64,000 nucleotides of DNA from Paraspadella gotoi (GCA_051294375.1 CM119266.1:9308538-9372537); one strand, 5' to 3'. Shown: positions 18,052 to 53,075, counted from the first letter of the stretch. Program-made: numbers and translations. The notes: generated by a model not told the origin, from the letters alone.

Positions 18052-18110
18052 GGAGAGGGAGGGAGAGAGAAGAGAGAGAGATGAGAGAGATAGAGAGAGA
18101 GACGAGAGAG

Positions 18111-18144
<34 letters not shown>

Positions 18145-18312
18145 AAACTCCGTTGTGGGCAGGATCGAAAAAGAAAATTATTTTCAGACATCAAAACAAA
18201 ATTGGTTTTTTTCATTCGACGCTCGCAGAATTTCAAAGCGTCCGTCGACAACTTGTAATTAAAAATATCTTTTCAGTTTTCAACCTAAGAAAACTTTTAT
18301 TTTATCCGGTTT
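11790..18312. other. Complex direct/inverted duplication around two 25-N gaps (probable assembly artefact)
   Basis: 11790-13480 is the reverse complement of ~16600-18312. 13508-14752 is the reverse complement of ~12180-13455. 14778-16600 repeats ~9980-11790. The gaps at 13483-13507 and 14753-14777 are each exactly 25 N. Differences are mostly homopolymer indels. Confidence 0.85.
14936..15611 (-). pseudogene. Redundant frameshifted copy of kinesin exons 1-3 (likely assembly duplicate)
   Basis: ATG AGC GAA TC at 15611; [11 protein letters not shown] and KFAFDFSYW exons are repeated with 1-bp indels inside the duplicated block. Confidence 0.7.
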
Positions 18313-23004: not shown

Positions 23005-24993
23005 ATGGCGACCTACTACGACAAGGCGTTCGACCTTGCCCTCGCCGAAGAGCGATTCCAGGTGGTGCGTCCCTGGTGGGACTTGATCAGTCAGATGACC
23101 ATCCAGTTCTCGATGATCATAGCCCTGACATCGATCTCGCTCGACGTCTTCTCTCAGTTCGGGTCGGGGATCAAGTGCACGCCGAGGAACGGGACCTTCG
23201 AGATCGGGATTCAGCAGGTGGTTGGGGAGAGTGGGTGGGAAAGAGGTGGGGGTTGGGTAATCGGGGAGGGCCTCTTTTTCCCAAAGTGCCCCATTTCATC
23301 TTAAATTCGGAATTAAAATAATTATCATGTTTAAAGATTAGATAAAAGGTTGGTTTTAAGGATTTGGTTAGTGAATTTGATTAGAGTTAAGGATTATGGT
23401 CAGAGATTAGGGTTTTAAGGACTAGGATTAAGGTTTAAAATAAAAGGTCAAAATTAAGTTCAAGGATTAAGGAAAATAGAAAATAGAAAAATAGACCCGA
23501 AATGCTGAACCCCGCTTCGACAGAACCTGTTCATCAATTCGGCCTGCATCGAGCATTCTGTGAGCTTCTACGTGGAATACTTTGGCTACGTCATGTTCGT
23601 CCAGTCGCTCCTGCTTATCGCCGTCGATAATTTCTGGCTCAACTGGAGCCGCACGAAGAATCGACTCAAGGTTGTGGATGAGAGAGAGAAAGAGACAGGG
23701 ATAGAAGATATTTTGGTATTAATATATGCCTGAAATAGTTTCCTCTTTTGTTTGCTCATGAGTATATTTAGTATAATATTATTAAGAGCACTCTTATTAG
23801 CGCGGAGCATAAATACAATAGATGATATATGGCCTCTTGTGCCCCCTTAATTTTTTGAATTTGATAATAGTAATATGCCCCAAGATAAAAAAAAAATGAA
23901 AATACTCTTATGGACACGCTGTCGCTGAGTATATCACGTATATATCACGTATAAAGTTTTTTTTATAAAAGGACTAAAACGACATAAGTGACGTAAAATG
24001 ACATAATGACATAATGACTAAAGTAATAATTTTTTTATGACTTAATGATATATTGACTAAAGGACCAAACTTGACTAAAACGACATAAAATGACGTAATA
24101 ACTTAATGACGTAATGACGCAATGACATATCGACGTTATGACGTAATAACTAAAGAACCAATCGTGAAGCTTTCGATTTTTAATGAATGCCATTGATAAG
24201 TTAGTAAATAAGATGCAGATCGTCATTTTATCAGGTTTGGATCCTTTGAAGGTTATCCTAGAAATTAATAGGCTAAATGAGTACTAATATATATATATAT
24301 AAATCTTATTCCGGCCAATTGGTATCATTTACGTCATTAGGTGTCATCTAATACCGATGATTTGTTTTTCTTTTTAAGAATGATATGAAAAATAATATTA
24401 ACTGCTGCAACATGCAAATGAGAATAAGAAATTAAATTACTATTCGAAATAAATCAAAAGTTATTCTTCACCGTTATTCTAGGCCTTCAACGACGTGGTG
24501 CAAGAGGTCCACCACTCCGTCGTCAAGCGAGAGTCGGTCAACAAGACCCTGAAGAACGTCGTCGCTAAGGGCGAGGAGGTGGAGGAGGAAGAGGAGGAGG
24601 CTAACGTGGCGAGGACGCTGTCGGCGCTGGCGTCGTCCAAGAATCAGGTTGAAAGGGGAAAGTTGGGAGAGAGGGAAAAGTGGAGTGCAGGGAAAATAGG
24701 ATCACGTGGAGATGGGGAAAAATAAAAGGAATTTCTTTAAAGTGACGGAGAAAGTTTAAATCGGTATTGTTTTGGTAAAACTTGGTCAAGAATATCTTAA
24801 AATGTCCGAAAACTTTTTATATTCACTGCGTATCATGAATCATCAACGTCCATTCATCAATCATCATGATCATCATCCTTCATCAATCATCAATCAATCG
24901 CAAATTATCTTCAATAAGTCGGAACCATTAAACAGTGGCGGCCTTTATTAGAGGGTGATAAAGATATGGATAAAATTAACACTGATGATGATA

Positions 24994-25040
<47 letters not shown>

Positions 25041-26975
25041 AATGATGATCATGATGACGACGATGACGATGACGATGATGATGACGATCTCTCACCTTCC
25101 AAGGTCCAAACGGCCGAGGCTGAAGAGGCCCTCCGACTCAACGAAAAGCTCCGCTCCTTCTTCCGCTCCAGTCGCGAATCCAAGCTGCTCTCCTTGGCCT
25201 ACAAGACCAAGACCCTGGCTCGGCTCCTGCTGGCCTTGCTCTTCTTCTTCGTCGCCCTCTACTACTTGATCAAGAACGTCTTCGATTTCGACTTCCCCTG
25301 CGACCTACCCGTGCTGCGGCACGAGGAGAGCGGCTCCGTACCGACGGCGCAGTTCTGGTGCGTCAACGTGACGGCCACTTTCTCCCGAATGCTCGTCGTC
25401 GCTTTCATCGTCGTCATCGTCGTCAACATCGTCGCTTGCGTGGCGGCGCTGATCGGGTGGGATTCGGTGCTGGCGCATCTGCCCGCCATCTTGGACGATT
25501 ATATCGGGGAGGAGGAGGAGGAGGAGGAGGAAGGGGATGAAGCGGCTCTGCGGGAATCGACGGCGACGTTTTCGGCTGCGGCGCCGGAAAAAGTCGGACT
25601 GACGCCGCGCGGCGTCGCGGAATTTGCCAAGACGGACGATGTGGTGTTTCTGTTGTATTTGCTTAGACAGGTGATTGAAAATGTTGAATAATGGGATCGG
25701 GTTTGAAAGAGAAGGTGGAGTGGGCGAGCGGGTGGCTTAAGCGTTGGTTCGGTAAAGAGAGACGGTTTACACTAAACAGCCAATAAAAATTGGAAAAGTG
25801 TCCAGGGAACGAAAAAAATAAGGTCAAAGTTTGACCCTAAAAAGAAAGAGAAAACAATTGAGGGTCAGGTTGAAAGTAAGGTCAATGGTTTATTTTTTCG
25901 TCAACACTGTCCGTGATTAATAGGTTGAATATCAAAGTTTTTAAATTTAAATGGTTAAACCTCAATAACTGCCACCTCGCGGTTCCGTTACACTTTAACT
26001 AGAAAAATGATACCCAGGGAATGAACTTGGGACGCACGGTTAAGACGAGTAGAAAAATACCGTTAATCCATTGAGTCGAGGCTTGGAACGGACAGTGACC
26101 TTGTGGCTTTCAGTCGTACTACCCCCACCACCCTTTCCGCCCCTCCCTCTCCCCTTCCACCCGCCCTTCCACATCCTCCAGACCAACGAGACGATGTTCG
26201 CCGAAGTGCTCGACTTCGCCTCAGCCGATTTCCACCACGAGCTCCTCGAGTATCTCTCCAACCGCGCCTGGCCTCTGGAGAAGCTCCAGTCGCTGGTCCG
26301 CCCTCCTCCGGCCACGCCCACCTTGAAAATCGTCGACGCCAACCTTGTCCTGGTTCCGCCGGCGACTCGTCATCTCCAAGACCTCGTGGAGATCGATCTC
26401 AGTTCTAACAATCATCTCTACGATCTTCGAAATCTCACCGGACAAAAGTCGCTCAAGTATCTAAAGCTTCGCGGATGCAACGTGGAATCGATCGACGATC
26501 TGCTGGAGCTCAAGACTCTCGTCTACCTCGACGTCTCCGATAACAAAGTCTCCCGCGTCCCGGAAGAGATCGTCCGCTTGGTCCGGCTGCGTTACTTGCT
26601 CCTCAAGGACAACAGGCTTCGGCGTCTGCCTTCGGAGATTCTGCTTCTTCCGGCGCTAAATTATCTCAGCGTCGAGCGCCGTCTGTTGGAAGGAATCGAT
26701 TCGGACGGCGTCTATTTTGAGCGCCACCCATTCATCCACGGCGCCTTCGTGCGGCGCGTGCCGGAGACGCCGCCGCCGGCGCCGCCGCATCCAGGATTGA
26801 TTCTGGACGCGGCATCGCCGGGGACGGAGTCGGCGCCGGCGCCACACGCAGATTTGCCGGCCATCGACGCGGCGCCAGCAGAGGCGGAAGTGCCGGAGAC
26901 GTTGAGTTCGATGGCGCCGATGAGCGAAGCGGAGAGTCTCGGCGATCCCGTTGAGGGAAGCGAGGGATCGCCGAC

Positions 26976-26982
<7 letters not shown>
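23005..26982 (+). CDS. LRRC8: LRRC8-like (volume-regulated anion channel / pannexin-like TM domain plus LRRs) protein 1, 630 aa
   Basis: Exons 23005-23217, 23524-23670, 24483-24647, 25104-25670, 26182-26982, all phase 0 with GT-AG. Translation: MATYYDKAFDLALAEERFQVVRPWWD (cf. LRRC8A YRILKPWWD), IKCTP, NLFINSACIEH..VEYFGYVMFVQSLLLIAVDNFWLNWSRT (cf. YVDAVCYEN..AKYFPY..SNFWFKFPRT), EAEEALRLNEKLRSF (cf. EGEQAKALFEKVKKF), FDFPC..FWCVNVTATFSR, DVVFLLYL, NRAWPLEKL (cf. NNEWTLDKL), then ~6 LRRs and a Pro/Ala/Glu-rich tail. Confidence 0.92.

Positions 26983-27064
<82 letters not shown>
26981..27064. repeat. (GA)n microsatellite directly after the LRRC8-like 1 stop codon
   Basis: Perfect GA run of about 40 units, one of many (GA)n tracts in the window. 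Confidence 0.95.
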
Positions 27065-27065
<1 letters not shown>

Positions 27066-27946
27066 GCATTCATGAACCTTAACCTTGATTTTTCCTTCCT
27101 AAATTTCTCTGCTCATTTTCTATTCATGAATCTTGATTTTATAAGCTTCTGAATATTTTTTTCTTTTTAAATTTCTCGCTTTTTTATCCAAAGACTGTTT
27201 TCGTGCTTGATAAATCTATCTTTAATAATAAACGGTAAATGAAGCTTAAAGTATAGCTAAAACGAAAACAGGATTTTATGGAGCATACAGATTAACTGAA
27301 TTCTCTTTCTCAAATGAAAAATTGACTTTTAGTCCGAGAGGAGAATAGTTTATCTTTTATATCCAGACTCCTTCTTTATCCTTTCAACGTTTTATTATCC
27401 TCGTTTGCAAATGGAACTTGAAAAAACTCTATCTCTCTCCTTTCTTCTCTCTCCTCGTCTCCATTGTTAGAAACTTGTAAAAACGGAGTCGCAAAAAACC
27501 AAACAAAGCCTTGCCAATGCCAATGCCAATGCCTTATACGCTTTTATAGTAGAATCGATTGTTACCAAGAGCCTTTTACGAGATTGAATAATGAATATGT
27601 AACTTTTATGCCTTGGATAATTAGTAAATGATTATTTATAGCTTTAAACCTTTGTACAGAAAATATTCATGATTTTTTTTCGAGTGATAACATATCCTTT
27701 CCAAAGTCAGGGGCAAGACGTCTTATTTATTAAATTAAAGGTTAATTTTTATATTGGTTGTAGCAATTTCGCATGCCCCGATTCTTTTTTTTATTTTAGA
27801 GAAACGAGAAATATATCAATCTAAATAATTATTTTCTCTAATTAAAGAAAAATCAACTAATTTCGACATCCGAGTCTACAAACTGAGGATTTATTCCCCC
27901 GAGGAATAAGAAAGTGAACGACGACGACGACGACGACGAATAAAAA

Positions 27947-30900
27947 ATGGCGTTCGTCGGAAAAGCGTTGGAATTAATTTCGCCAGAAAAAGGGTTGGAG
28001 TCGGTCCGACCGTGGTGGGACGTTGTCAGCGGACTCATTGCAGGTGATGGGTTATTGCAGGTGGTTCTTCATTGCTGGCGATTTGTATTCACTATCGAGT
28101 ATCACCTTAATTTTTTATGAAATTTTTTTTTTCTATCGCTCGAGGGTTAATTACGCTCTTTAGATAATCGGCTCGCTCTCTGTCTCTCTCTCTCTTTCTC
28201 CGTCTCTCTCTCTCTCTCTGTCTCACTCGCGCCAAGGCGATTCCCGGTTTTAGCACCTGCCGTTCATACATTCTGTCGTTAAATGTTCCACCATTTCTAT
28301 CTGCTCTCTCTCGATTAATCTTTCTCGCTCTCACGCTGGTTCTTTTTTTTCTTTTATTCCTTTCTTTCTTTCTTTTCTGTTTTTTTTTTCTTACTTTCTT
28401 TCCATCTTTCTTTCTTTCCACCTTTCTTTATTTCTATCTTTCTCTCTTTTCCGTCTTCCTTTCTTTTTTTTCTTTCACAGTCTCTCAGTCTCTCTTTTGT
28501 CTCTTTCTTTTCCTCATTAGCGCGACTTTTTCGATTCTTCAACAGAAGGGGGTAACCAACTAGGTCTCTGGGTGTCTCTCTCTCTCTCTCTCTCTCTCTC
28601 CCTCCATCCCCTTCCATTTTCCTCTCTCCCTTTCTACTTCGTTTTTTCTTCTTTAATTTTTACCTTCAGTTTTTCCGCGCAATTTTCCTCCATTTTCTCC
28701 GCGTTATGACAGATCGTTATGACAGATCGTTATGATAGGTGTCCCTTTACCGCCGTCGACGTCGCCGGGAAAATTTCTCTGGCGAGAAAAACCGCCATTT
28801 GCTTCTTGGCTGAAAAAAAAAAATGTGAATCCTGGCTTCATTCAGTCTCTGTTGATTTTTTAATATTCATTCTCATTATCTATATCAATTAAAACCGTGT
28901 TTAATGTCTCTTTGACACTTGAGAATACTATAAATTTAAACCACATGTGATTGATTAAAATAAATTACGTTTGTTTCTTAAATTGGGTTTTTGTTTGTAT
29001 TTTTTTTTTACGTTTAAAATAATTGACAAAAGATTAAAATGTAAAATATAAAAAAATATAAATAAAATGATTAAAAACATATGAAATACTAAAAAATATT
29101 TTAAAATATAAAAAGCCAAAATCAGTGAAACAGTAATTTTACTATTCTCTCTCCCTCTCTCTCCCTCTCCCTCTCCCTCTCTCCAGACGCGATGACGGTC
29201 ATCTCTCTCGTCTCCATCTCTCTCCAACTCTTCGGCGGATTCGGCTCCGCAGTCAAATGTATTCCAGTTTTGCCCAACATCGACCCGAAGAACGAAGTTG
29301 TCGACCAACTTCCGTGGAGGTGAGTGTACGTCGGCACAGCTGCGTCGGCACAGTTGCATCGTCAGTTGCGTCGGTAATAGCATCGACACAATTGCGTCTT
29401 ACAGTTGCCTCGTCAATTGCATTGAAAATCACGAGGGTTATGACATCAGCGGTTATGTTGGCAGTTGCATTGACACAATTGTATTGGAACAGATACGCAA
29501 TTACGGCAATTACTTCAGTAATAGAGTCGAGGGTTGAATCGACATAATTGTGTCGGCATAGTTGCGTTGGCACAGTTGCGCCTGTAATAGCAACGATGAT
29601 TGCATTGGCCGTTGCATCAACACAATTGTATTAGCATCATTGCCTAGGCTTTTGCGTCTGCATTTCCATGGGCACTGTAGCATCAACACAGTTGTCTGTA
29701 GAATAAAACTAATGTGGAAACATATATTAAAAGTTGAGACTGAATTGGACTAGCCTCAAGAAGGGACGGCTCCTCGGGTGAGGGATGGGAAGAGGAGGAT
29801 TAAGATCGTGGTTGCTTCAACGCATTTTTGTGGGCGGTTACATTTGTAATAGTGTCTGGAGCTAATTGGCAGTATTTGAGTCAACGGTTACATCGAAACA
29901 ATTGCGAACAAACAGTTACGACAACACAGTTGCGTCGGCATTGGTCTCCGCATTTGCGTTGGCAAATCTACTCCGGCATTTATGTCGGCATCCGCGTCGA
30001 CATCGATTGCCGCTTCGGCTTCAACTTTAATTTCCCCTTTGTTTCTAGTTTCCATCTTTTTTTTTTTTGTCAGTTTTCATGAATAAATTTCGGTTTAACG
30101 AATCCGGTTTTAACGAGGTTCATGAATATTTTAAGATAACGATTAGGTTTAGAGAGAATTTTGATCGTTTTCACGGCCTTCGGAGTCCAAACGAAATAAA
30201 AGAGATTAGATTTAGTAAGTTAACTGAAATGATACAAACAAACAAACAAACAAACAAGGTATTTTCGTCTTTACCAATGTTGAGACTTTTCCTTTTTTTC
30301 CCCCCCCAACAGCCAGAGACAACTCGTGGATTCTTGGTGCGTGGAAAAAGACATGAGGTTTTACGCTAAATACTTGGGTAAGTGTTTTTTTAACTTATAT
30401 ATCGCGCATCCTTCGATTAGAAATGTTTTATTAAGTTTTTCCTTTCTTTAAGGATACATCCTCTTCATTCAAGTTTGGCTCCTGATGGCCATCGACAATT
30501 TTTGGCTGAAATGGTCCAAGTCTGGTAAGTACGACAATACGCATGACTTTCTGTATTATATACCCTTTGTATCATTTCAAACTTTTTGTCCTACAATTTT
30601 TCTTCATTCGCTTCCTTTTCTTCCTTCCACAATTTAACCTCTCGATTCCCTTTCTTTCCTTCTGATCTTTTTTTCACCTCTCCTTTGCCCTCTTTCTTTC
30701 CATCCCTCTCTCTCTCTCTCTCCAATTCCTCTCTCTTCCTCTCCCTCTCCCTCCCTCTCAGCCTGCAAGCTCCGCGCCTTCATAACTCTGACGGAGCGTT
30801 GCACCAAATCCAAGTGCGACCACGAGATGATAAAGATGCAACTGAAGAGAGCGACTGGAGAGAAGATTGACGGAAGTGGTTTCAAACAAGGTCGTTGTTG

Positions 30901-31591
30901 TTGTTGTTGCTTGTTTGTGTTTTAAAGAATTTATATCTATTTCCTTATATTGTTTAACTTAAAAAATTACGTAGTTACTTGTTTTGCTATTTTAAGTTTT
31001 TATATTCTAAAATATTTATTCGTTTAAACCCTATTTTTAATTTATATTTTCTATTTACTCTTTTTTTTAATTATTTAATGTTATTGTTGTGTTATTTGCC
31101 ATAGTTTGGTCCATGATTGCTTATAATTCGATCAAATCATCAAAAAAATTATTTGGGCTTTCGTCGAACAGGTTTTAGCTCAAGTGAGTTGGCGCGAAAT
31201 TCTGGTTGTTAACATTGTATTCTAAAAATAGATTGGGCGCCGTTGTCAGACGTCATTGATGTGGCGTTGATGTAGCTGTGATGTAGTATTGACGTTCGCC
31301 GCATTAACTTCGCTTCCGTCGTGAGCGACCGCGTGACTAATAACTCGTCCCGTGAGTTTTAAAATATTTCAGCCGATGTCATATTTCCATTCGCTTTTGC
31401 TATTTTTAACTTTCGTTGTCTTCGTCCCACTGGAAATGTTGAAAATGGCCATATTTATATATTTTTTTTTATAGTATTCTCCTTTCTTCTCCCTTATTAC
31501 AGTTTTCTTCTTTTTCTATCATGTTTTTAATCTGGTGTCCCTCTCTCTCATTCTTCCTCTTCCTTCTACTTTATACCTTCTCCCTTCCCCA

Positions 31592-31651
<60 letters not shown>

Positions 31652-37600: not shown

Positions 37601-38865
37601 AATTTTTGAAGGGCAATGTTATAAATGACCATTCTACGAGAGTATTTCTATATTTCATATAGTAGATCAGATTAATAAATAAACTTTCTTTTTCCCAAAA
37701 ATTATGTATCCGTTTCATACAAAGGTTCTTAACTATCTAAGATTCTACATTTTTTTTTTTTTTTACTTGACCAAATTTCTTTTTAATCAATTCTGTCCAA
37801 AATCCGTGTAAAATTAAAAGAATCTTTAAATCTTTTATAATAATAAAAGACGAGTAATATTTTGTTCCCAGCTTGTTTACAGTCAGGCACCCCAAACAAA
37901 ACAAATTTCCAACCGCGCGACTATAATTCCGAACAAAAGGAAAATTGGCTTTTTGCTTTTTTTTTCGCCCAGCGACACAATTCGATTAAGAAAGAAAACA
38001 AGGAAACGAAATAAAAAAAATCCAAAAAAATTTAAAAATTGGCACTATTTTCGTGAGCGCCCCATTTAGATTAAAAATCTTGAAGCTTAATTTTAACTTA
38101 ATATCTAGCTCTAATCCACTAATCCTTAACTTTAATCCATAAATCTATTTTCTAACCTTAAACCCTAAACCTTAAACAAAATCTAAAACTTGAAAAGGGG
38201 CGCTATCGGAAAAGAGGGCCCCAAAATTAAGGCTTTCGTTTGCAACTACGAATGTTGTAACGAAAAGGAAAAAAAGGGAATTTTCTTTCTCCCCCTAACG
38301 GAGAAAGAACGAAACAAGATATTTATATGCGGTTTTTTTATGTTTTTTGTTTGGAGAAAATGTTTTTTTCCTTGAAGCAAAAGAAAAACCTTGAAAACAA
38401 ATTTCGCAAATTGTATTACAAAGGCCCGTAGAGAAGTGGGTGGCATTGAATCTTTAAATTAGACACTATGCATATTAGACAAATTTGACAATTAGACAAA
38501 TAGACAATTGGACAAATTAGACAGTATGCATATTTCTATTATAGTTTAGAGTTTACACGGTTATATAGTATAGTATAGTAAGGTTCGTTCTATTTGGGTT
38601 CTAACTCTACCTCTAAGCATCCTTTAATGTTTATTGTTCAATTCCAGTCTCCCTACTTAAATACTGGCTTGTCTTTCTACAACGTTCTTTCATAAATTAC
38701 TCGACATACCACGTCTCTTCCATGCCCCACCATGTCCCGCCCCATGCCAGAGCTTCAAAGAATTTCTCTCTCCTCTCTTTCACGACGACTTGATTCGTTT
38801 GGCGACGAATCGGAAATGGAATACGGCAGAAATGGAGAGACGGAAAATATCATTCGGGCGAGGTC

Positions 38866-38939
<74 letters not shown>

Positions 38940-40931
38940 CGATGTTTGATTGATTTGTTGATTGATCGATGTTTGATTGATCTTTGATTGATTGATAGAT
39001 TAATTGTTTGATTGATTAATTGATATAATGATTGAATGTTGAAAGATTGATTAACGGTTGATTGATAGATTATTTGATTGATGGTTGGTCGACCGACTGA
39101 TTGCTTGCTCAAATGAAAGTTTTAGTTAACCTGATACTTTCCTATTTCTTTTTACCTTTTTTTAAAATTTTAATCTTAATTCAAATAATTTGAGAATTTC
39201 AACTTCGACACAATTTTTTTTTTCTTTTCTCCTTCAGACGATGACGGGTTCTCCATTTCTCTGGCGGACGTTGAACTCACTTCGCTTCCCGCTTGCTTGT
39301 TCTCTGTCACCAAGCTCAAAGTGAGTGCTTGTCTGAGCCGGGTTATTGTCCGGCCACGTCATAGAATCGACATTTTTTTTNNNNNNNNNNNNNNNNNNNN
39401 NNNNNNNNNNNNNNNNNNNNNNNNNNNNNNNNNNNNNNNNNNNNNNNNNNNNNNNNNNNNNNNNNNNNNNNNNNNNNNNNNNNNNNNNNNNNNNNNNNNN
39501 NNNNNNNNNNNNNNNNNNNNNNNNNNNNNNNNNNNNNNNNNNNNNNNNNNNNNNNNNNNNNNNNNNNNNNNNNNNNNNNNNNNNNNNNNNNNNNNNNNNN
39601 NNNNNNNNNNNNNNNNNNNNNNNNNNNNNNNNNNNNNNNCCCTCTCTCTCTCTCTCCAGGAACTGGACCTCTCCTTCAACGAGAGTCTCGTTAATCTAGA
39701 AGGAATTGAGAAACTGGTGGACCTCGCGGTTCTTAAAGTCGAGTCCTGCAAAGTGAGTTGTAACTTGTATGAGTCTTAAATGAAATACATTTTACATAAT
39801 ATCGTATTTATCTCCAATGAGTATTAGCGTTTTAGCTTACGAGCGTTATTGCTTTGACATGGAACTATTTATTCTTCAATTATTTTTTTTAAATTTTTTA
39901 AACTATTTTTTCGTCTAATTTATTTATTTATTCATTTATCTATTTATTTATTTATTTTTTATTTTATTATCTATTCATTTTGTATCTTTTCATTCATTTA
40001 TTTATTTCTTTATTCATTCATTTATTAATATTTATTATTTTTCATGATTTTCATCCTCCGAATTATCCTCTAAAAATCATTTGGCATGACTTTAATTAAT
40101 AAATATCTAAAAAATTTTTTAAAAAATTTTTTATAATATTTGTTAATATTCTAAAGCTGTGGTCCCCAAAACCGCAGAGCGATTATTCTTTTATTTATCC
40201 TCCAGAGATTCAAGAGCACGCCGGAGAATTTCTTCTTTTTTTTAAAATCCGTTCTCCGATGCTATTTTTAGCTCAAAAAATGGTTCGCGTTCTGAACGCG
40301 TTAGCCCCCCCCCCTCTAATTCGTTCCTTCTTTTTTTATTTTTCTTTCTTTGCTTTTTTTTTTGCGTAAAAGCACTGAGAAAGAAGATGATGATGACGAT
40401 GATCGAACCGGCGACGAAAAATGGCGTCGTAAAGCTATTAAACGCCGTCTCGCTCTCTCGCTCGCTCGTTCTCTCACTTTCTTTCTTTTTTTTCTAGGTT
40501 TCCTTCTTTCTATTTCCTAGCTTTCTATCTTTTTTCTTTCTTTCTTTCTTTCTTTCTTTCNNNNNNNNNNNNNNNNNNNNNNNNNNNNNNNNNNNNNNNN
40601 NNNNNNNNNNNNNNNNNNNNNNNNNNNNNNNNNNNNNNNNNNNNNNNNNNNNNNNNNNNNNNNNNNNNNNNNNNNNNNNNNNNNNNNNNNNNNNNNNNNN
40701 NNNNNNNNNNNNNNNNNNNNNNNNNNNNNNNNNNNNNNNNNNNNNNNNNNNNNNNNNNNNNNNNNNNNNNNNNNNNNNNNNNNNNNNNNNNNNNNNNNNN
40801 NNNNNNNNNNNNNNNNNNNNNNNNNNNNNNNNNNNNNNNNNNNNNNNNNNNNNNNNNNNNNNNNNNNNNNNNNNNNNNNNNNNNNNNNNNNNNNNNNNNN
40901 NNNNNNNNNNNNNNNNNNNNNNNNNNNNNNN

Positions 40932-40969
<38 letters not shown>

Positions 40970-43900
40970 GATCACATCTTTCATCTCTGACCCGCTCTTG
41001 CTTGTGGAATTTGAAAATGTCAGAAAACTGAGCGAAGGGAAATAAAGATTTGTTTAGTTATTCTTTAAAAAATAATGAAACAGGTTTACTTTTACCGAGC
41101 GATCTTCCGGAAGCAAATGTTATAATCCTTTCGTTTTCACACCCCCCCTCCGATTTTCCCGCCTTCCTTCCCCCTTCCCCTCTGCCCCGGCCAACTTTCA
41201 CCACCCTCAACTTACCCTCCCTTCAGCTCCAAGACCTTACCCCGGCGACGCGCCTCCCTAACCTCCAACGCCTCCAAGCGGCGGACAACAGCTTCGTCGG
41301 TCTCCCCGAAGGCTTCGAAAGTCTCGAGCAGCTGACTTACCTCGACGTCTCGCAGAACGACAGCCTCACCGCCTTACCGCTGGGTGAGATTCGTCGTCGT
41401 TGTTCGTGGGGATTTTGTGTTCATCCGATGATAGGACAATAAAAAATAAAATAAAATTAAAAAACCGATGAGTTATTATTTATGAATTACATAAGGGAGT
41501 GGTCTTTTCATACAATTGAAACATTNNNNNNNNNNNNNNNNNNNNNNNNNCTAATGTTGTTCAACCAGGACATCCAGGTGGTCACACATTGCATTGGAAA
41601 ATTGAAAAAAAAAAAATTCAAATTATAAAATTGTTTTATAAAAAAAAATAATCTGATATCGGGCGTTCGAGCGAATTTATGATTATAATCACGAGCCCGT
41701 GCACGATGATTAACGATTGTTTTCGGCGTATATTCATATTTGTGTCGACACCAGTAGAACTCCCTAGATGTCTTTGTTAAGCCTTACATATAATAGTCGT
41801 TATTCAGATGACGCCCGAGTATCGAGTAGAGAAAAATGTTTATTATTTTCTATGCCACGAGGTCGGGTGGTCACCCCTATTCTAGCGCGTTCGATTCGTC
41901 GCGTCTGTAGGTTAAACTGGCCTAACATTGAAATCCAAGGATTTTTCTTCGTATGAACTATCTGGTAAAAATACGGAAGCAAAAGAAAATAATAAAATCC
42001 AAAATACCTATACACGATGCACATTGGAGTTCATGAACAAAAAATCCATGTTTTCTGATTGGTTGATCGATCAACTTGTTGACGAGGGTAAAAAACCCTA
42101 TTTTATTTCCCTTGTTTTTTATCGCCTTCAAGAGATTAAATCTTTTTTCCCCCCCCATATTCGCGTCTAAAGAGACGACGAGACAAAGAAGGAAAGGAGT
42201 CGGAGGCTGAAGCCAAAGCTCGGGGGGAGGTTGTTGTTGAAGTGAGTGAGAAGGGAATTAGAGCTGTCAGGGTGCAGTACGAGAGGGTGAGTTACGAGGA
42301 GTTGAGTACGAGCGCGTTTGAGTACGGGTGTGATCACAAAACGGATGGGAATCAGATCGGAGGAAGTTTTCAAGTATTTTGAGACAAGGGCGCCTGAGTT
42401 CGACTTGGAGTTTGAAAAGGAAAAGAGGAAGAAAAGTGTCGCGATTTTTCGAAAGCGCCCCATTTTCTTTCTTTAATCCTAATATTTATTCTTAATCTTT
42501 TAAATCATTAATATAATCCAATCTCCAAAATCCTCGTCCTTAACCCAAATCCATAACTTAATCTTTAAGCATGAAAATCTAATTTCTTTCCTAATTTAAG
42601 ATGAAATTGCGGGCGCGGAAATGGAACAATATGGCCAAGGAAGGCCAAAGTTTAGGGTTGAAAGCAGTGAGAAGTAAACGATTTCCGTGTAGTATACGAG
42701 GGCTTTAGAAACGAACGGGTACAAGTAAAAGAAAGGTTAGCAAAATTACTGTGTTTCACTAAGTTTTTTTTTTATTTTTAGATTTAAATAACTATTATTT
42801 ATTAATTTTTTTTTGAATTGGTTAAAATATTTTTGTGTTAAATATTTAAATTATAATATTATTTATCTGTTCGGGTATGGCGGACGTTTAGTGTTGTCTT
42901 CCTGGAATAAATGTAATAAGTACATAAAGGGTAGTAAAGTTCATTGACGACAAACAATTTCAAGGTGGACGTATTTAGGAAAATTGTAGTGGATGTGAAT
43001 GAAAGAGATTTGCAGACCGTGGGAGATGAAAGCGCCTGGAATAAGGCGGACGTGCCGGAACAGGTTAGGGTTGGACAAGCGGGAGTGGGGGGGTGGTGGT
43101 GGTGGGGTCGATAGGGTGGGGTGTGGAGGGTGGGCGGGTGGGTGAGATCTAATCAAAGCCGCGACGCATTGCATTGCGGAAGGGAAACTCGTGGTCACGA
43201 TGCGTGGACTTGTTTCCCTTTGAATCGAAAAACAAAATTATTTTTCTTTGCTCTTTTTTTATTTTATTCCTTGTTCTTGTTCTTTATTTTCTCTGTCTTT
43301 CGCTTTTATTCATTGTTTTCACTCTGCCTCGCTAAATTTTAAATTTTTGAAAATAAAAGCGTGGGGAAAAAAAACTTTGTTTTTCCCTCTGCCTTTCTTT
43401 TCCTTTTCCTCTTCTCGTGACCTTTTCAGTGGCATAAATTTCTTTTTCTAATTTAGGTTTTCGCTCTAATTTTCCTTTCGATATATTGTCTCCTCCTTTT
43501 TTACCTGTATTCTGTTTTCTTCTTTTTGGATTTTCAATTCTCCTTCGAGAACAATTCGCCATAATTCTTTTCTCCTCCCTTCTCTGTTTCAATGTTTCCC
43601 CTCTCATCTTTCACACTCTTTTATCCCATTAACCCCCATTGCCTTCCTCCACGGGCCCTGGGTTGGTGCTCCCTTTGAGAGCGTTTGACGACGTGTAGAC
43701 ACATTGTTAAAAATATATTATATTTTAACTAATGATGTGTGTATCTCTAAACTTAAACAGCCCAATCTGCCTCAATATAATGGCTCTACCCTTAAAATAA
43801 ATAAAAACCTATATATAATTTTGTAAGCTTATTATAACATAAGCCTACGAAGTAATAATTATTATAATAATAAGACTATAATCCTATTATCATTTATGCA

Positions 43901-46236
43901 TTGTTTAATGTGCCCTCGGTGCCGACCCGATACGCCGGGTAAACAAGTTGTGAAGAGCGCCCACGGCCATTTCTCCACACCACCCCTTGTCCCCCACCAC
44001 CTACCAACATTTCAAATTACCTTCCCCCCCCCTCCGCCCGCCCCATTCGCCCAGATCTTGCAGGCCTACGAGAAAGACGATCTTCAAAGCAGGAAATGGA
44101 ATGAAGATTCGAAAATTGATGGAAAACCCGAACGAGAGACATCCGTCTTTCTGCTCATTTCTTTTTCCTATACGACGAACAAGGAAATTTAAGGTATTTT
44201 TAATCGTCTAGGGGAATGTTGAGAAAAGAACGAAGCGATGCGAATTGTAATTCATTTTCCAGATTCAAACTTTTTCATGATCAGTAACAATAAATCAATA
44301 AATAAAGAACATAAATTTTTGCAAAAGGCAATGTTATAATGACCATTCTACGAGAGTATTTCTATATTTCATATAGTAGAATCAGATCTAATAAATATAA
44401 AACTTTCTTTTTCCCAAAAATTATGTATCCGTTTCAACAAAGGTTCTTAACTATCTAAGATTCTACATTTTGTTTTTTTTTTTTTTTACTTGACCAAATT
44501 TCTTTTTAATCAATTCTGTCCAAAAATCCGTGTTAAAATTAAAAGAATCTGTTAAATCCTTTATAATAATAAAAGTACGAGTAATATTTGTTCCCAGCCT
44601 TGTTTACAGTCAGGCACCCCCAAACAAAACAACATTTCCAACCGCGCCGACATTATAATTCCTCCGAACAAAAGGAATAATTGCTTTTTGCTTTTTTTTT
44701 TCGCCCAGTACGCACACAATTCGATTAAGAAAGAAAACAAGGAAACGAAATAAAAAAAATCCAAAAAAAAAATTAAAAATTTGGCACTATTTTCGTAGCG
44801 CCCCGTCCCCATTTAGATAAAAAATCTTGAAGCTTAATTTTTAACTTAATATCTAGCTCAATCCACTAATCCTTACTTTAATCCATAAATACTATTTTTC
44901 TAACTTTAAACACCTAAACCTTAAACAAAATCTAAAACTTAAAAGGGCCGCTATCGGGAAAAGAGCGGCCCCAAAATTAAGGCTTTCGTTTTGCAACTTT
45001 ACGAATGTTGATAACGAAAAGTAAAAAAAGGGGAAATTTTCTTTCCTCCCCCTAACGGAAAAAGACACGAAAACAAGATATTTATATTGCGGCTTTTTTT
45101 ATGTTTTTTTTTGGAGAAAAGGTTTTTTTGCCTTGAAAGACAAAAGAAAAACCTTTGAAAACAAATTTCCAAATTGTATTACTAAAGGCCCGTAGAGAAT
45201 GGGTGGCATTGAATCTTTAAATTAGACCACTATGCATATTAGACAAATTTGACAATTAGCACAATAGACATTGGAACAAATTAGACAAGTATTGCATATT
45301 TCTATTAGGTAGTTCTCGAGTTACACGGTATATAGTTATAGCTATAGTAAGGTTCGGTTCTATTTGGGTTCAACTCTACCTCTAAGCATCCTTAATGTTT
45401 ATTGTTCAATTCCAGTTCTCCCCTACTTAAATACTGGCTTGTCTTTTCTACAACGTTCTTTCATAAAAAAAAAAAAAAAATATAAAAAATATTACTCGAC
45501 ATTACCACGTCTCTTCCATGCCCCACCATGTCCCGCCCCATTGCCAGATTGCTCAAAGAAGTTTCTCTTCTCCTCTCTTTCACGACGACTTTGATTCGTT
45601 TGCGACGAATTCGGAAATGGATACGGCAGAAATGAGAGACGGAAGAAATATCATTCGGCGAGGTCTTGATTGATTTGATTGATGGATTGATTGATTGATT
45701 GCATTGACTTGATTGAGTTGATTGATTTGAGTGATTGATCGATGGTGATGATTGTTGATGATCGATGTTTGATTGATTCTTTGATGATTGATAGATTAAT
45801 TGTTTGATTGATTAATTGACTATAATGATTGAATGTTTGAAAGATTGATTACGGTTGATTGATAGAATGTATTGATTGATGGTGGTCGACCGACTGATTG
45901 CTTGCTCAAAATGGAAGTTTTAGGTTAACCTGATTACTTTCCTATTTTCTTTTTACCTTTTTTTTAAAATTTAATCTTAATTCAAAATTTGAGAATTTCA
46001 ACTTCGACACAATTTTTTTTTCTTTCCCTTCAGACCGAATGAACGGGTCTCCATTTCTCTGGCGGACGTTAACTCACTTCGCTTCCGCTTGCTTGTTCTT
46101 CTGTCACCAAGCTCAATGTGAGTGCTTGTCTGAGCCGGCGTTTATTGTCCGGCCCAAGTCATTAAATCGACATTTTTTTCAATTACTCTCGCAAATCTCT
46201 CAGTTCGCTATCCTGAATCTCTCTCTCTCTCTCTTA

Positions 46237-46267
<31 letters not shown>

Positions 46268-46338
46268 TTTCTCTTTCTCTTCTCTCTCCTCTTTCTCTCT
46301 CTCTTCTCTCTCTCTTTCTCTCTCTCTCCCCTCTCTCT

Positions 46339-46371
<33 letters not shown>

Positions 46372-46435
46372 CTTCCCCTCTCTCCTCTCTCTCATCTTCC
46401 CCCCTCTCTCTCTCTCTATCTCTCTCTCTCCTCTA

Positions 46436-46484
<49 letters not shown>

Positions 46485-49393
46485 CTCTCTTCCCCTCTCT
46501 CTCTCTCTCAGGAACTGACCTCTCCTTCAACGTAGAGTCTCGTTAATCTAGAAGGAATTGAGGAAACTGGGTGTGCGGAAAGCCTTCCGCGGCTCTTAAA
46601 AGTCGGAGTCCTACCAAAGTGAGTTGTAACTTGTATGGAGTCTTAAATGACAATACATTTTACATAATATCGTACTTTACTCCACATGAGTATAGGATGC
46701 CGTTTTAGCTTGACGAGCCGTTATTGCCTTCTGACATGTAACTATTTCATTTCTTCAATTAATTTTTTTTAAATTTTTTAAACTATTTTTTCGTCTAATT
46801 TATTTATTTATTCATTTATCTATTTATCATTGTATTTATCTTTCTTCAATTTTACTTATCTATTCATTGGGTGTATCTTCTCATTCTATTTATTTATTTC
46901 TTTACTTCATTCATCATTTAATATTATTAAGTATTCTTAATTTTTCATACATCCTCCGAATTATCAACTCTAAAATTCAGTTTGGCATGACTTTACATAA
47001 TAAATACTTAAAACAATTTTTTAAAAAATCTTTTGATAATATTTGTTATATTCTAAAGCGTGGTCCCAAAACCGCAGAGCGATTATTCTTTTTATTGTAT
47101 GCCTCCAGAGATTCAAGAGCACGCCGGATGAATTTCTTCTTTTTTAAATCCGTTCTGCCGATGCTATTTAGCTCAAAAATGGTCGCGTTCTGAAACTCGT
47201 TGCCCCCCCCCCCCCCTCTAATACTCGTCTTCTTTTTTATATTCTTTCTTTGCTTTTTTTTGCTTTTTTTTGCGTAAAAGCACTGAGAAAGAAGAGATGA
47301 TGGAGAGATGATCGAACCGCCGACGAAAAATGGCGTCGTAAAGCTATTAAACGCCGTCTCGCTCTCTCGCTCGCTCGTCTCTCACTTTCTTATTCTTTTT
47401 TTTTCTAGGTTTCCTTCTTGTCATTCTCGCTGAGCTTTCTATCTTTTTCTTTCTTTTTTATCTTTGTTCTTTCCTTCTTTCTTTCTCTTTCTTTCTTTCT
47501 TTCTTTCTTCTTCTTTTTTCTTTTCCTTCTTTCTTTTCTTTCCTTTCTTTTTCCTTCTTTATTTCCTTCTTTCTTTTTTCTTTTCTTCTTTCTTTCTTCT
47601 TTCTTTTTCTTTCTTTTCTCTTCTCTCTTCTCCTCCTGACTCTCTCCTCTCTCTCTCTCTCTCTCTCGTCTCCTCTCATCACACCGCACCCTAACCACAT
47701 AACGATTTCTCCGTCCTGAGGGAAAAGAAAAAGTGGTTCTCGCTTCCTCGGCTTCCTTGTATTTGTCGTCGGAAAAGGATGCGCATTAGGGAGGAGAGAG
47801 GAGAGAGAGAGAGAAGAGAGAGAGATGAGGAGCAAGAGAGACAGAGAAGAGAGGGTTTTAGATCACATCTTTCATCTCTGACCTCGCTCTTGCTTGTGGA
47901 ATTTTGAAAATGTCAGAAAACTGAGGGCGAAGGGAACATAAAGATTCTGTTTAGTTATTCTTTAAATAAATAATGAAACAGTTTACTTTTACCGAGCGAT
48001 CTTCCTGGCAAGCAAAATGTTATATCCTTTCAGTGTTTTCACACCCCCCTCCTCCGATTTTCCTCGCCTTCTCCCCCTTCCCTCTGCCTCCGGCCAACTT
48101 TTCACCCCCTCAAACTTACCCTCACCTTCCGCTCCAAGACCTTTACCTCCGGCGACCGCGCTCTCCTAACCTCCAACGCCTCCAAGCGAGGCGGGACACA
48201 GCTTCGTCGGTCTCCCGAAGGCTTCCGAACAGTCTCGAGCAGCTGAACTTACTCGACGTCTCTCAGAACGAACAGCCCACCGCCTTACCGCTGGGTGAGA
48301 TTCTCGTCGTTCCGCTTTGTGGGATTTGTGTTCATCCCGATGCATAGGGACAATAAAAAATAAAATTAAAATTAAACAAAACCGATGATTATATTATGAA
48401 TTACATAAGGGGAGTGCCGTTCTTTTCAATAACAATTGAAACATCTTTTGAAATATTTTCCACTTCATTGATAGGAAGCTCAGGTACTCTCGGAGTGAAT
48501 AAACGAGACTGTGAAAGAGTCTTGATTGAAAACATTGCAGGACCTGTATTGGTCATTCATCTTGTAAGACGTGATGGAGGCCTTAAACCACCCAAAAGCC
48601 TGTCCAAAGTCAGGGCGCAGATAGCTATTTATTAAATGAATGCGATTAATTTTTATATTGGTGTACAATTTCATATAGTTTGCATCTATTAATTAATAGA
48701 ACAAGTCAACAAAGGGAGAACAAAAGGGGAGCAAGTTTAATTCCCAAGCTTTGCTCGGGGTGAAATAAATAAAGAAAGACTCTTTGAGTGTTCCTCTCCA
48801 CGGAAATCTTTAGTAAAAGGCGAAAGATTTGTGCGCTCTGAAGAGAAACCAGAGTTGAATTATCGGAGAAAAGACAAAATATGAATAGCCTTACGGTTTT
48901 CTCGCATAGGGACTTGTTTATAATAAAAATTTGTCATTCTAATTTATTTTTTGAACATATGCAGTTCCTAATATTTAAATTATTTATCGTATACATTATA
49001 CAAGTTATTTTTGTTCTTTAGAGTTTTCAATAAATTACTTATAAAAAATAAAGAATAGAGTAAAAGTGTTTTCTCTAAAATACTGCAATATGCAAATGAA
49101 TTTGTTACGCTTAATTTTCTTGATTTTTTACTCTTTCTAACTCCTCTTCCTTCCTTTTATTCTCTTTTAGTTGTAATATTTTCAAACCTTTTTTACTCTA
49201 CTGATCCCCGACTCTTTGCTTTACCCTGTCTTCTACTGCAGCTCTCAACACGATGCCACGCCTGACAGAGGTCCATGCGGACAGACGCCTGATCGAGGCC
49301 ATCGACCCCACGGGCGAAGTCTGGGCGCCTATCAAAGATATGGAGAACGTTTTCCGAAGAGTCGGTTCCAAGTTGAGATTCGACTGGGCGTGA
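27947..49393 (+). CDS. LRRC8: LRRC8-like protein 2, 554 aa, 14 exons
   Basis: Phase-consistent GT-AG exons 27947-28043, 29187-29319, 30313-30377, 30453-30524, 30762-30890, 32320-32426, 32807-32983, 33370-33522, 37352-37486, 38751-38862, 39238-39320, 39660-39752, 41227-41383, 49242-49393 (1665 nt including stop). Translation: MAFVGKALELISPEKGLESVRPWWD..VKCIP..PWSQRQLVDSWCVEKDMRFYAKYLGY..IDNFWLKWSK..FAFACD..FSCTN..DIVFLLFFL..NRKWNTAEM..LKELDLSFN..LTYLDVSQN..RFDWA*. Collinear with gene 1. The span is inflated by the 41551-48444 duplicate. Confidence 0.88.
29330..30005. repeat. Degenerate intronic minisatellite (cacagttgcgtcgg / gcatcgacacaattg units)
   Basis: Reiterated cagttgcgtcggca and catc(g/a)acacaattg motifs at 29335-29700 and 29890-30000. 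Confidence 0.65.
34901..35132 (+). promoter_or_regulatory. snRNA-type promoter (extended octamer plus PSE-like box) with no recognisable known snRNA downstream
   Basis: ATTTGCATATAGCAGT at 34906 matches the U5 upstream element ATTTGCATATTGCAGT in the same relative orientation. TCACATAAGAGAAAAGCAAGAGTT at 35109-35132 shares the exact 14-mer GAAAAGCAAGAGTT with the proximal promoter of U5 copy 2 (54087-54074, minus). Confidence 0.55.
35167..35302 (+). ncRNA. Candidate unidentified small nuclear RNA (possibly SL-RNA-like)
   Basis: Start inferred from the 35-nt spacing in the U5 copy 2 promoter. Stems TACGTT/AACGTA, AACTT/AAGTT and AAGAA/TTCTT are followed by the U-rich Sm-like TAATTTATG (35250-35258). 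The 3' end is a guess. Confidence 0.3.
35940..36007. repeat. 11-bp tandem repeat (gtgagtacgag)
   Basis: About six units next to an N gap; each unit resembles a consensus donor GAG|GTGAGT. Confidence 0.8.
38866..39105. repeat. (GATT)n microsatellite with a degenerate extension
   Basis: ttgattgattga run immediately after the exon 10 donor. Confidence 0.9.
41551..48444 (+). other. Error-rich second copy of 34335-41525, including frameshifted LRRC8-like 2 exons 9-13 (alternate haplotype or gap-fill artefact)
   Basis: Starts right after a 25-N gap (41526-41550). Collinear with 34335-41525, with exon copies near 44056, 45550, 46034, 46512 and 48132 riddled with 1-bp indels. It supplies sequence where the first copy has N gaps. 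Confidence 0.88.
48742..48856 (-). ncRNA. RNU5: U5 spliceosomal snRNA (copy 1, antisense in the last intron of LRRC8-like 2)
   Basis: Minus strand ACTCTGGTTTCTCTTCAGAGCGCACAAATCTTTCGCCTTTTACTAAAGATTTCCGTGGAGAGGAACA has the invariant loop I GCCUUUUAC and is close to metazoan U5. 3' hairpin CCCGAGC-AAA-GCTTGGG. Confidence 0.95.
49082..49099 (-). promoter_or_regulatory. Octamer-containing distal sequence element of U5 copy 1
   Basis: ATGCAAAT at 49090-49097, i.e. -234 to -241 from the U5 5' end, the same spacing as in copy 2. Confidence 0.7.
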
Positions 49394-52536: not shown

Positions 52537-53075
52537 ACGACGAAGACAGCGATGAAGACAACAACGAATTCTATTTTAACAACGATTCCAACGACGAATT
52601 CAATTCCTACAACAAAAGACAATGACGAAGACCATGACCAATTCCATTTTAACGACGATTCCAACGAGGAATTCAATTCCTACGACAAAAGACGATGACG
52701 AAGACCACAACGAATACTATTTTAACGACGATTCCAACGACGAATTCAATTCCTACGACAAAAGACGACAAAGACCACGACGAATTCCATTTTAACTACG
52801 ATTCCAACGACGAATTCAATTCCTGCGACAAAAGACAATGACAAAGACCATGACGAATTCCATTTTAATGACGATTCTAATGACGAATTCAATTCCTACG
52901 ACAAAAGACGATGACAAAGACCACGACAAATTCCATTTTAACGACGATTCCAACGACGAATTCAATTCCTACGACAAAAGACGATGACGAAGACCACGAC
53001 GAATTCTATTTTAACGACGATTCCAAGGACGAATTCGATTCCAACGACGAAGGCGACGACGATTCCAACGACGAT
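52537..53075. repeat. 73-bp minisatellite, about 7 copies
   Basis: The tttaa(c/t) anchor ends at 52580, 52653, 52726, 52796, 52869, 52942 and 53015 (period 73, one unit 70). The period is not a multiple of 3, so it is non-coding. Confidence 0.92.

What the first reader, a model, noticed from the sequence alone, without database searches (positions are those of the whole stretch)
23005..49393. Tandem pair of 'short-LRR' LRRC8-like channels with pannexin-like extracellular loops
Seen: two spliced genes share the LRRC8 hallmarks (PWWD before TM1, NFW after TM2, four extracellular Cys, W-containing linker) but carry only ~6 collinear LRRs, and the two EL1 cysteines are only 21 and 29 residues apart. 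Known: vertebrate LRRC8A-E have about 15-17 LRRs and EL1 C54-C113 spacing of 59, versus C66-C84 (18) in PANX1; LRRC8 is thought to derive from a pannexin-plus-LRR fusion. Inference: a divergent LRRC8 subfamily structurally between pannexins and VRAC subunits, whose two adjacent paralogues may co-assemble as a heteromeric channel.
Basis: partly seen in the sequence, partly recalled or inferred. Interest (0 to 1): 0.85.

Follow-up and report, generated by a model that had tools for sequence, protein, structure and literature searches.

The report
Short-tailed LRRC8 channels outside chordates
Two neighbouring intact genes in an animal genome, likely an arrow worm's, encode relatives of the vertebrate swelling-activated channel LRRC8 with about six leucine-rich repeats instead of about fifteen; they likely form a large-pore channel for ions and small solutes, and they suggest that this family is older than chordates and likely began with a short tail.

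Summary
Two intact + strand genes (630 aa, 5 exons; 554 aa, 14 exons) carry a four-helix LRRC8 pore and about six LRRs, with EL1 cysteines 21 and 29 apart. Spliced contigs join gene 1's exons; full-length orthologues of both rule out hidden LRR exons.

The 'halfway to pannexin' reading fails. A profile scores LRRC8 at 114-154 bits and pannexins at 22-29; predicted folds match LRRC8 at Z 22-27 and pannexins at 15-16.5. EL1 spacing ranges 19-52 inside the family, and a Hydractinia homologue also has 21. Short LRR tails also occur in cnidarian homologues (Xenia, in RefSeq).

The genes form their own branch (99/99) outside vertebrate LRRC8; its position is unresolved and no pannexin root was available. 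Earlier unchecked notes call the genome an arrow worm; I did not test this. If true, this is a protostome pore-plus-LRR LRRC8, against reviews calling the family chordate-only, and short tails are likely ancestral. Neither gene has the R103 filter arginine (Ile, Trp). Heteromer and swelling gating are untested. The scan earlier noted LRR-less LRRC8-type pores in other genomes, not this family.

The parts
23005..26982 (+). Gene 1, LRRC8-family subunit, 630 aa, 5 exons (23005-23217, 23524-23670, 24483-24647, 25104-25670, 26182-26982): 4 TM helices, short EL1 (C58-C79), Ile69 at the R103 filter position, linker, six LRRs (about aa 409-535), acidic Pro-rich tail
23005..23217 (+). g1 exon 1: N-terminus, PWWD, TM1, first EL1 Cys
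   Evidence: PF12534 E 0.0099; covered by spliced contig
23524..23670 (+). g1 exon 2: EL1 helix, second Cys, TM2, NFW
   Evidence: PF12534 E 6.5e-11; joints on both sides
24483..24647 (+). g1 exon 3: intracellular loop 1 with poly-Glu tract
25104..25670 (+). g1 exon 4: TM3, EL2 with two Cys, TM4, start of linker
   Evidence: PF12534 E 1.2e-4
26182..26982 (+). g1 exon 5: linker end, all six LRRs, tail, stop
   Evidence: LRR_4 E 9.3e-10, LRR_8 E 2.9e-8
26983..27946 (.). 964-base spacer from g1 stop to g2 start, same strand
27947..49393 (+). Gene 2, LRRC8-family subunit, 554 aa, 14 exons (27947-28043, 29187-29319, 30313-30377, 30453-30524, 30762-30890, 32320-32426, 32807-32983, 33370-33522, 37352-37486, 38751-38862, 39238-39320, 39660-39752, 41227-41383, 49242-49393): EL1 C57-C86, Trp76 at the filter position, about six LRRs, no long tail
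   Evidence: 66% collinear with full-length P0005/P0095
41732..48444 (+). Indel-rich second copy of 35312-41524, with frameshifted copies of g2 exons 9-13; probable assembly artefact that inflates the last intron, not extra LRRs
   Evidence: 80-88% identity; 148 gap openings against 59 mismatches in the longest block, and gaps in 5 of 5 exon copies

Best explanation
The two genes encode old paralogous subunits of the LRRC8 family, each with a four-helix pore, a helical linker and about six LRRs, which likely assemble, alone or together, into a six- or seven-subunit large-pore channel that would release anions and small organic solutes, likely on cell swelling. Shown: intact genes, splicing of g1, family membership by profile and predicted fold, short LRR tail, orthologues of both genes in other data sets. 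Inferred from known LRRC8 and pannexin structures: ring assembly; disulphides C58-C261/C79-C241 and C57-C269/C86-C236; an outer constriction at Ile69 (g1) and Trp76 (g2) instead of LRRC8A's Arg103, hence weaker anion selectivity and likely no block by DCPIB. Inferred by analogy only: swelling or ionic-strength gating (about 55%) and co-assembly of the two subunits (about 45%). Evolutionary reading (inferred): a short tail is the usual state outside vertebrates, and the 15-repeat arch is likely a vertebrate expansion.
For: Orthologues score above the PF12534 cut-off of 25 bits (P0002 104.7, P0005 71.5); Innexin is not listed for P0002 and gives 15.7 bits, below cut-off, for P0005. P0002 aligns with LRRC8A through TM2-TM4 and the linker into the first LRR. 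Models match LRRC8A 7xzh at Z 27.0, rmsd 3.0 over 414 residues, and Z 27.5, rmsd 3.4 over 434. P0002 I69 aligns with LRRC8A R103. PMC10043284 (passages) equates LRRC8A R103, PANX1 W74, PANX2 R89 and a PANX3 Ile, and reports that PANX2 R89W is non-selective and R89 mutants are DCPIB-insensitive. PMC9399500 (passages): LRRC8D has F143 there with a wider pore, and LRRC8A needs a partner for near-native current. Each gene groups with its own orthologues (96/97 and 100/100), so the pair has been kept across species. Post-linker tails: 164-267 aa in 9 of 9 family rows; 173-185 aa in 5 of 10 anthozoan-like rows (2 more carry a caspase domain after 5-6 cores, 3 look truncated); 381-406 aa with 13-16 cores in 8 of 8 full-length vertebrate-type rows.
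Against: No functional data. Identity to vertebrate-type pores is only about 21% (18-25%), so gating need not be conserved. PMC9399500 reports that LRR truncation of LRRC8A reduces current and trafficking, so a six-repeat tail may not support VRAC-type gating. PMC6363415 (passages) says VRAC has been detected only in vertebrate cells. The intracellular loop that PMC6028502 (abstract) calls essential differs in length and make-up between g1 and g2 orthologues. The models were built with vertebrate LRRC8 rows in their alignments, which favours an LRRC8-like fold. The tree has no pannexin or innexin outgroup, so 'short is ancestral' rests on parsimony over unrooted groups. Some cnidarian-like rows are gene calls on contigs and may be cut short.
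Confidence: 0.55

Rival explanations
1. Same family and pore, but not a volume sensor: each paralogue forms its own homomeric large-pore channel (ATP or metabolite release), and the short LRR is a docking or sensing module for another signal.
For: g1 and g2 are about 30% identical, share 0 of g1's 4 intron positions and differ in intracellular loop and tail. The cytosolic half of this family is swappable: caspase-fused rows P0036 and P0069 and LRR-less rows such as Hydractinia P0105. g2 has Trp at the position of PANX1 W74.
Against: The linker and first LRR are collinear with LRRC8A; vertebrate paralogues of this family work as heteromers (PMC9399500); the genes lie head to tail 964 bases apart.
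Confidence: 0.28
2. One reading: a relic lineage structurally between pannexins and VRAC subunits, close to the original pannexin-plus-LRR fusion.
For: EL1 spacing of 21 is near PANX2's 18 (C81-C99, PMC10043284). In the best tree the family lies with the LRR-less group, apart from anthozoan-like plus vertebrate-type rows (95/86), which would make it early-branching if the root lies there. The pore half of P0002 alone drew pannexin-like Atlas clusters at 0.89-0.90 (a lead only).
Against: Profile: LRRC8 114-154 bits in 26 of 56 matched sequences, pannexins 22-29 bits in the next 26. Fold: pannexins Z 15-16.5 at rmsd 3.7-6.2. EL1 spacing varies 19-52 within the family and 39-90 among vertebrate-type rows. 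Both groups joined by the 95/86 branch are long-branched, and the alternative placements are not rejected (p-AU 0.126 with vertebrate-type, 0.141 with anthozoan-like). Whole P0005 drew only LRRC8 clusters at 0.97.
Confidence: 0.12
3. The family reached this lineage by an old horizontal transfer (for example from a cnidarian), so it says nothing about an origin before the cnidarian-bilaterian split.
For: PMC9399500, citing Abascal and Zardoya 2012, invokes transfer for Nematostella. A clade with anthozoan-like rows is not rejected (p-AU 0.141) and both have short tails. None of the 20 clusters looked up among the more distant hits carried a name from another protostome.
Against: Intron-rich genes, deep paralogue split (path 2.59 changes per column), several further paralogue-like rows, and equal distance to vertebrate-type and anthozoan-like pores (21.2% and 21.6%). 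Most hits are unnamed, so missing protostome names are weak. Unchecked notes report LRRC8-type pores in copepods and other invertebrates.
Confidence: 0.12
4. Artefact: truncated or mis-assembled copies of an ordinary 15-LRR LRRC8, or contamination.
For: The assembly is error-prone here: 8 N gaps between 22 and 50 kb and noisy duplicated blocks.
Against: All g1 LRRs and the stop lie in one gap-free exon covered by spliced contigs. Independent full-length orthologues end at the same place. Nesting with LRRC8A-type rows is rejected.
Confidence: 0.02

Closest known systems
LRRC8A-E (SWELL1/VRAC subunits; PF12534 + LRR; PDB 7xzh, 6g8z, 6m04, 8b40)
   Same: Short N-terminus and PWWD, four TM helices, four extracellular Cys, NFW, helical linker running into the first LRR; best sequence and fold matches.
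   Different: About 6 against 15-17 LRRs (PMC9399500); EL1 spacing 21 and 29 against 39-90 in vertebrate-type rows; Ile and Trp instead of LRRC8A's R103 (LRRC8D has Phe); about 21% pore identity; separate branch.
Anthozoan LRRC8-like proteins (Nematostella EDO31227.1, partial; Xenia XP_046862342.1 and XP_046862351.1)
   Same: Pore plus short LRR tail of about 5-6 scored cores and about 180 aa after the linker.
   Different: Long EL1 (52-70, with an extra Cys pair), separate branch (94/94), about 22% identity. Only their existence in Nematostella was seen in print, not their short tails.
Hydractinia 'LRRC8C-like' XP_057316428.1 and related LRR-less proteins
   Same: PF12534 pore with PWWD and the same EL1 spacing of 21.
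   Different: No LRR; about 17% identity; own long branch (100/100).
Pannexins PANX1-3
   Same: Same superfamily fold, short EL1 (PANX2 18), Trp (g2, as PANX1 W74) or Ile (g1, as PANX3) at the outer constriction.
   Different: Far weaker profile and fold scores; no LRR; Innexin model below cut-off.

Membership tests
LRRC8 family | PF12534 Pannexin_like pore domain above the curated cut-off | tested here: met
   g1 exon 2 alone 42.3 bits; orthologues P0002 104.7, P0005 71.5, P0008 76.6 against cut-off 25. The spliced window proteins were not scanned whole. The distant member P0018 scores only 9.7.
LRRC8 family | Four TM helices with two Cys in each extracellular loop | tested here: met
   Sequence; models of P0002 and P0005, mean pLDDT 82.6 and 86.4. 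Disulphide pairing inferred from PMC10043284.
LRRC8 family | Helical linker after TM4 followed by a C-terminal LRR domain | tested here: met
   Alignment to LRRC8A 368-430; LRR Pfam hits; six LRR strands in both models.
Vertebrate LRRC8A-E clade | 15-17 LRRs | tested here: not met
   5-6 scored cores against 13-16 in 8 of 8 full-length vertebrate-type rows.
Vertebrate LRRC8A-E clade | Nests among LRRC8A-E in a pore-domain tree | tested here: not met
   Vertebrate-type rows form one side of a 100/100 branch without the family; nesting with three LRRC8A-type rows rejected, p-AU 0.0004. Nesting with the other subtypes was not tested separately. Row labels are mine.
VRAC (functional) | Arg ring at the R103 position of the essential subunit | tested here: not met
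   Ile69 in g1 and P0002, Trp in g2 and P0005, Tyr in P0008, Leu in P0018. A further paralogue elsewhere in the genome could carry Arg; no whole genome was held.
VRAC (functional) | Swelling-activated, outwardly rectifying anion and osmolyte current | not testable with these tools
   Needs electrophysiology.
VRAC (functional) | Heteromeric hexamer | not testable with these tools
   A full ring exceeds what can be modelled here; needs co-expression or cryo-EM.
Pannexin/innexin family | PF00876 Innexin above cut-off; closer to PANX than to LRRC8 | tested here: not met
   PF00876 15.7 bits (cut-off 25) for P0005 and not listed for P0002 or P0008.
Pannexin/innexin family | Position relative to pannexins in a rooted tree | not tested
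   No pannexin or innexin sequence was returned as a usable protein, so the tree has no such outgroup.

The most novel reading that the evidence does not exclude
A protostome lineage (likely arrow worms) keeps an expanded family of complete pore-plus-LRR LRRC8 channels. With the cnidarian short-tailed homologues this puts the pannexin-LRR fusion before the cnidarian-bilaterian split, not at the origin of chordates, with about six LRRs as the ancestral state. The adjacent pair forms a natural minimal heteromeric volume-regulated channel with an uncharged Ile/Trp filter, showing that the 15-repeat arch is not needed for volume sensing.
Probability: 0.3. Interest if true: 0.75.

Novelty: new variant of a known kind. 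Interest (0 to 1): 0.52.

Why it matters
Two reviews read here describe LRRC8 as a chordate or vertebrate innovation, with Nematostella explained by possible gene transfer (PMC6363415, PMC9399500). An old, intron-rich, multi-paralogue LRRC8 branch in a likely protostome argues for a much older family with wide losses. How VRAC senses volume and what the LRR arch does are open questions; truncations of LRRC8A are hard to read because they block trafficking. A natural six-repeat, arginine-free pair is a ready-made comparison for gating, selectivity, DCPIB block and six- against seven-subunit assembly. Limits: the taxon is borrowed from unchecked notes, short-tailed cnidarian homologues already sit in RefSeq, and no function is shown.

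Tried and rejected
No whole genome is held for this window, so further paralogues and innexins in this organism could not be counted. Sequencing-run search: no RNA holder listed on record; one run held 0.86 of the words. Read support for g2 was not obtained. Complex prediction of the pore-and-linker parts of P0002 and P0005: no answer, score 0.26 against a mark of 0.34, controls not folded, alignments not used; no evidence either way. Two scans of metagenome contigs found no locus (0 of 260 and 0 of 332 pattern matches confirmed), so a planned check for an arrow-worm spliced leader on transcripts could not be made. A profile search for more named relatives returned 6 proteins, one new. Operon idea: the chaetognath genome paper defines operons by under 250 bases between genes; the coding ends here are 964 apart and the UTRs are unknown, so it is neither shown nor excluded. 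That paper's main text has no mention of LRRC8, innexin or pannexin, and 0 of 3 supplementary files held had any of six related terms; other supplements may not be held. Extra LRR exons in N gaps or in the 41.7-48.4 kb copy: rejected. A hidden linker exon in the gap at 35622-35939: rejected, g2 is collinear with P0005 without it. Filter residues of P0007, P0010 and P0012 were set aside because these short rows appear to begin in intron sequence just before that exon. PANX1 C66/C84 numbering was not found in PMC3928549 and stays recalled. Look-alike search of earlier findings by sequence: nothing.
Full report
Observation. I rebuilt both genes from the sequence. g1 has 5 exons (23005-26982, 630 aa) and g2 has 14 exons (27947-49393, 554 aa); 17 of 17 introns are GT-AG and both frames are open. 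Of 14 exon pieces scanned, 4 hit PF12534 and 2 hit LRR models. The paralogues are 29.8% identical, E 1e-70, and share none of g1's 4 intron positions, so the duplication is old.

Are the models right? Contigs of run X1 cover g1's exons with few differences; 3 of 4 introns are listed as GT..AG joints at the modelled places and the fourth is bridged within one contig. The run is guessed to be RNA, is one study and may be related to the source of the assembly. Runs X2 and X3, from other organisms, hold diverged pieces of exon 5. g2 has no read support here. Its model is collinear with two full-length proteins, P0005 and P0095 (66% over 564 columns), and g1 with P0002 (59.6% over 589). These end after the same six repeats, so the N gaps hide no LRR exons. 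The block 41732-48444 repeats 35312-41524 at 80-88% with gaps outnumbering mismatches (148 against 59 in the longest piece) and gaps in 5 of 5 exon copies. That pattern fits a raw long read used in assembly (inference), not extra repeats.

Family. P0002, P0005 and P0008 pass the PF12534 cut-off; Innexin does not. A profile of nine pore-and-linker sequences (five of this family, four LRR-less relatives) matched 56 PDB sequences at E up to 10: 26 LRRC8 at 114-154 bits, 26 pannexins at 22-29 bits, 4 unrelated. AlphaFold models of P0002 and P0005 (pLDDT 82.6 and 86.4; alignments of 45 and 44 rows that include vertebrate-type LRRC8) show four membrane helices, a helical linker and six LRR strands. 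Their 26 best structural matches are all LRRC8 (Z 22-27.5); pannexins reach Z 15-16.5 with higher rmsd. The proteins are LRRC8-family members, not intermediates.

EL1 spacing is 19, 21, 21, 29, 37 and 52 in the six family members where it can be read, 21 in Hydractinia XP_057316428.1, 52-70 in anthozoan-like rows and 39-90 in vertebrate-type rows where my script found both Cys (two vertebrate-type values, 84 for P0029 and 114 for P0027, start at a wrong Cys, and P0054 failed). PANX2 has 18 (PMC10043284); PANX1's 18 and LRRC8A's C54 are recalled. So a short loop is probably the old state of the superfamily, with repeated insertions, and carries little phylogenetic weight. For LRRs, a rough scorer found 4-7 cores in 9 of 9 family rows, 5-6 in 7 of 10 anthozoan-like rows (3 others look truncated) and 13-16 in 8 of 8 full-length vertebrate-type rows. 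Named anchors are Xenia RefSeq proteins of 548 and 582 aa and a partial Nematostella protein. In two rows a caspase domain follows the short LRR block, so those counts are not truncations. Short tails are thus shared with cnidarian homologues.

Tree. From 92 hits of a search of 1.84 billion representatives and cluster members, 60 rows covered at least 230 of 363 profile positions. I dropped 22 (near-copies and poorly called rows) and added 5 partial rows, giving 43 rows and 398 columns. Four groups each form one side of a branch: this family 99/99, vertebrate-type 100/100, anthozoan-like 94/94, LRR-less 100/100. Labels are mine; only four rows in the tree carry a source name (Nematostella, two Xenia, Hydractinia). 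g1 and g2 each group with their own orthologues. The best tree separates the family plus LRR-less rows from the rest (95/86), but both are long-branched, and a clade with vertebrate-type rows (p-AU 0.126) or with anthozoan-like rows (0.141) is not rejected. Nesting with three LRRC8A-type rows is rejected (0.0004). There is no pannexin or innexin outgroup, so no root. Mean pore identity is 21.2% to vertebrate-type, 21.6% to anthozoan-like and 16.6% to LRR-less rows (a subset of 29 rows).

Organism. I could not test it directly. Two earlier, unreviewed notes on other pieces of this genome call it an arrow worm. My own results fit a little-studied animal: spliceosomal introns, a kinesin neighbour, one run holding the DNA, and close relatives only as unnamed assembly products. 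I put arrow worm at about 80%. A chaetognath genome paper reports a burst of tandem duplication in this phylum (PMC12460157, passages), which fits a tandem paralogue pair.

Mechanism. The residue ten before the second EL1 Cys aligns with LRRC8A R103. PMC10043284 equates that site with PANX1 W74, PANX2 R89 and a PANX3 Ile, reports that R89W removes anion selectivity, and ties DCPIB block to the arginine. g1 has Ile and g2 has Trp; P0005 has Trp and P0008 Tyr. This is the one pannexin-like detail with functional meaning, but non-A vertebrate subunits are also uncharged there (LRRC8D F143, PMC9399500; Leu, Ile, Phe or Tyr in many rows). I therefore expect a ring-shaped large-pore channel, wider and less anion-selective than LRRC8A, passing ions and organic osmolytes. 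Swelling gating and co-assembly are analogies with VRAC, at about 55% and 45%. The main rival is two homomeric release channels gated by something else (0.28).

Literature. Passages read: PMC6363415 (Lrrc8 not identified in invertebrates; origin at chordates), PMC9399500 (Nematostella homologues, possible transfer; 15-17 LRRs; truncation effects), PMC10043284, PMC12460157 (plus a term search of 3 supplementary files), PMC2566580 (plus one supplement), PMC6391747, PMC3928549. PMC6028502: abstract and outline only. Abascal and Zardoya 2012 was not read; it is cited through these reviews and may describe the Nematostella tails. A search for LRRC8 with chaetognath found 0 papers; the listings showed no study of short-LRR or protostome LRRC8. 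Most subscription papers and bioRxiv supplements are not covered. Unreviewed notes of this scan report LRRC8-type pores without LRRs in copepods, a likely sea squirt, another invertebrate and squamates, so the pore domain may be widespread outside vertebrates; none describes this family.

Verdict. A real, intact, expressed (g1) pair and a new variant of a known kind: a separate short-LRR, arginine-free branch of the LRRC8 family. The 'between pannexin and VRAC' reading is not supported. The value lies in the likely protostome host, which bears on the age of the family, and in a natural short-tailed channel for testing what the LRR arch does. Interest 0.52; 0.75 if the novel case holds (probability 0.3).

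Noticed in passing
window 4502-10554, - strand: Exons of a kinesin motor gene (Pfam Kinesin in 3 of 5 pieces scanned); it reads like a kinesin-3/KIF28 type (recalled label, not tested).
   Followed up: partly
window 9981-18312: The 5' part of the kinesin locus is repeated several times in both orientations at 94-95% with gaps outnumbering mismatches; probably another assembly artefact.
   Followed up: partly
proteins P0036, P0069 and cluster members P0098-P0104: Anthozoan-like LRRC8 pore plus short LRR fused to a caspase domain (Peptidase_C14 E 6e-29 and 1e-47): a channel-caspase fusion that I did not look up in print.
   Followed up: no
proteins P0105 (Hydractinia XP_057316428.1), P0070, P0074, P0081, P0086, P0093: LRR-less PF12534 proteins with short EL1 forming their own branch; P0105 is named LRRC8C-like by NCBI although no LRR family is found in it.
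   Followed up: partly
protein P0018: A much more divergent third type of the short-LRR family (547 aa, EL1 spacing 19, long branch 2.7), source organism unknown; with P0003, P0004 and several fragments it points to more paralogues than the two in this window.
   Followed up: partly
window 24483-25670 and 26680-26982: g1 carries poly-Glu tracts in both intracellular loops and a 71-aa tail with 12 acidic and 0 basic residues; the first acidic tract is also in P0002.
   Followed up: no
window 27890-27903: A pyrimidine run followed by AG lies about 44 bases before g2's ATG; it could be a trans-splice acceptor if the host trans-splices, but such sites are common by chance.
   Followed up: no
window 52525-53078: Tandem repeat with a unit of about 72 bases, 84-88% between copies.
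   Followed up: no
window 60011-64000: Several inverted matches between 60011-61588 and 62544-64000 (77-87%), possibly a fold-back element or an assembly effect.
   Followed up: no
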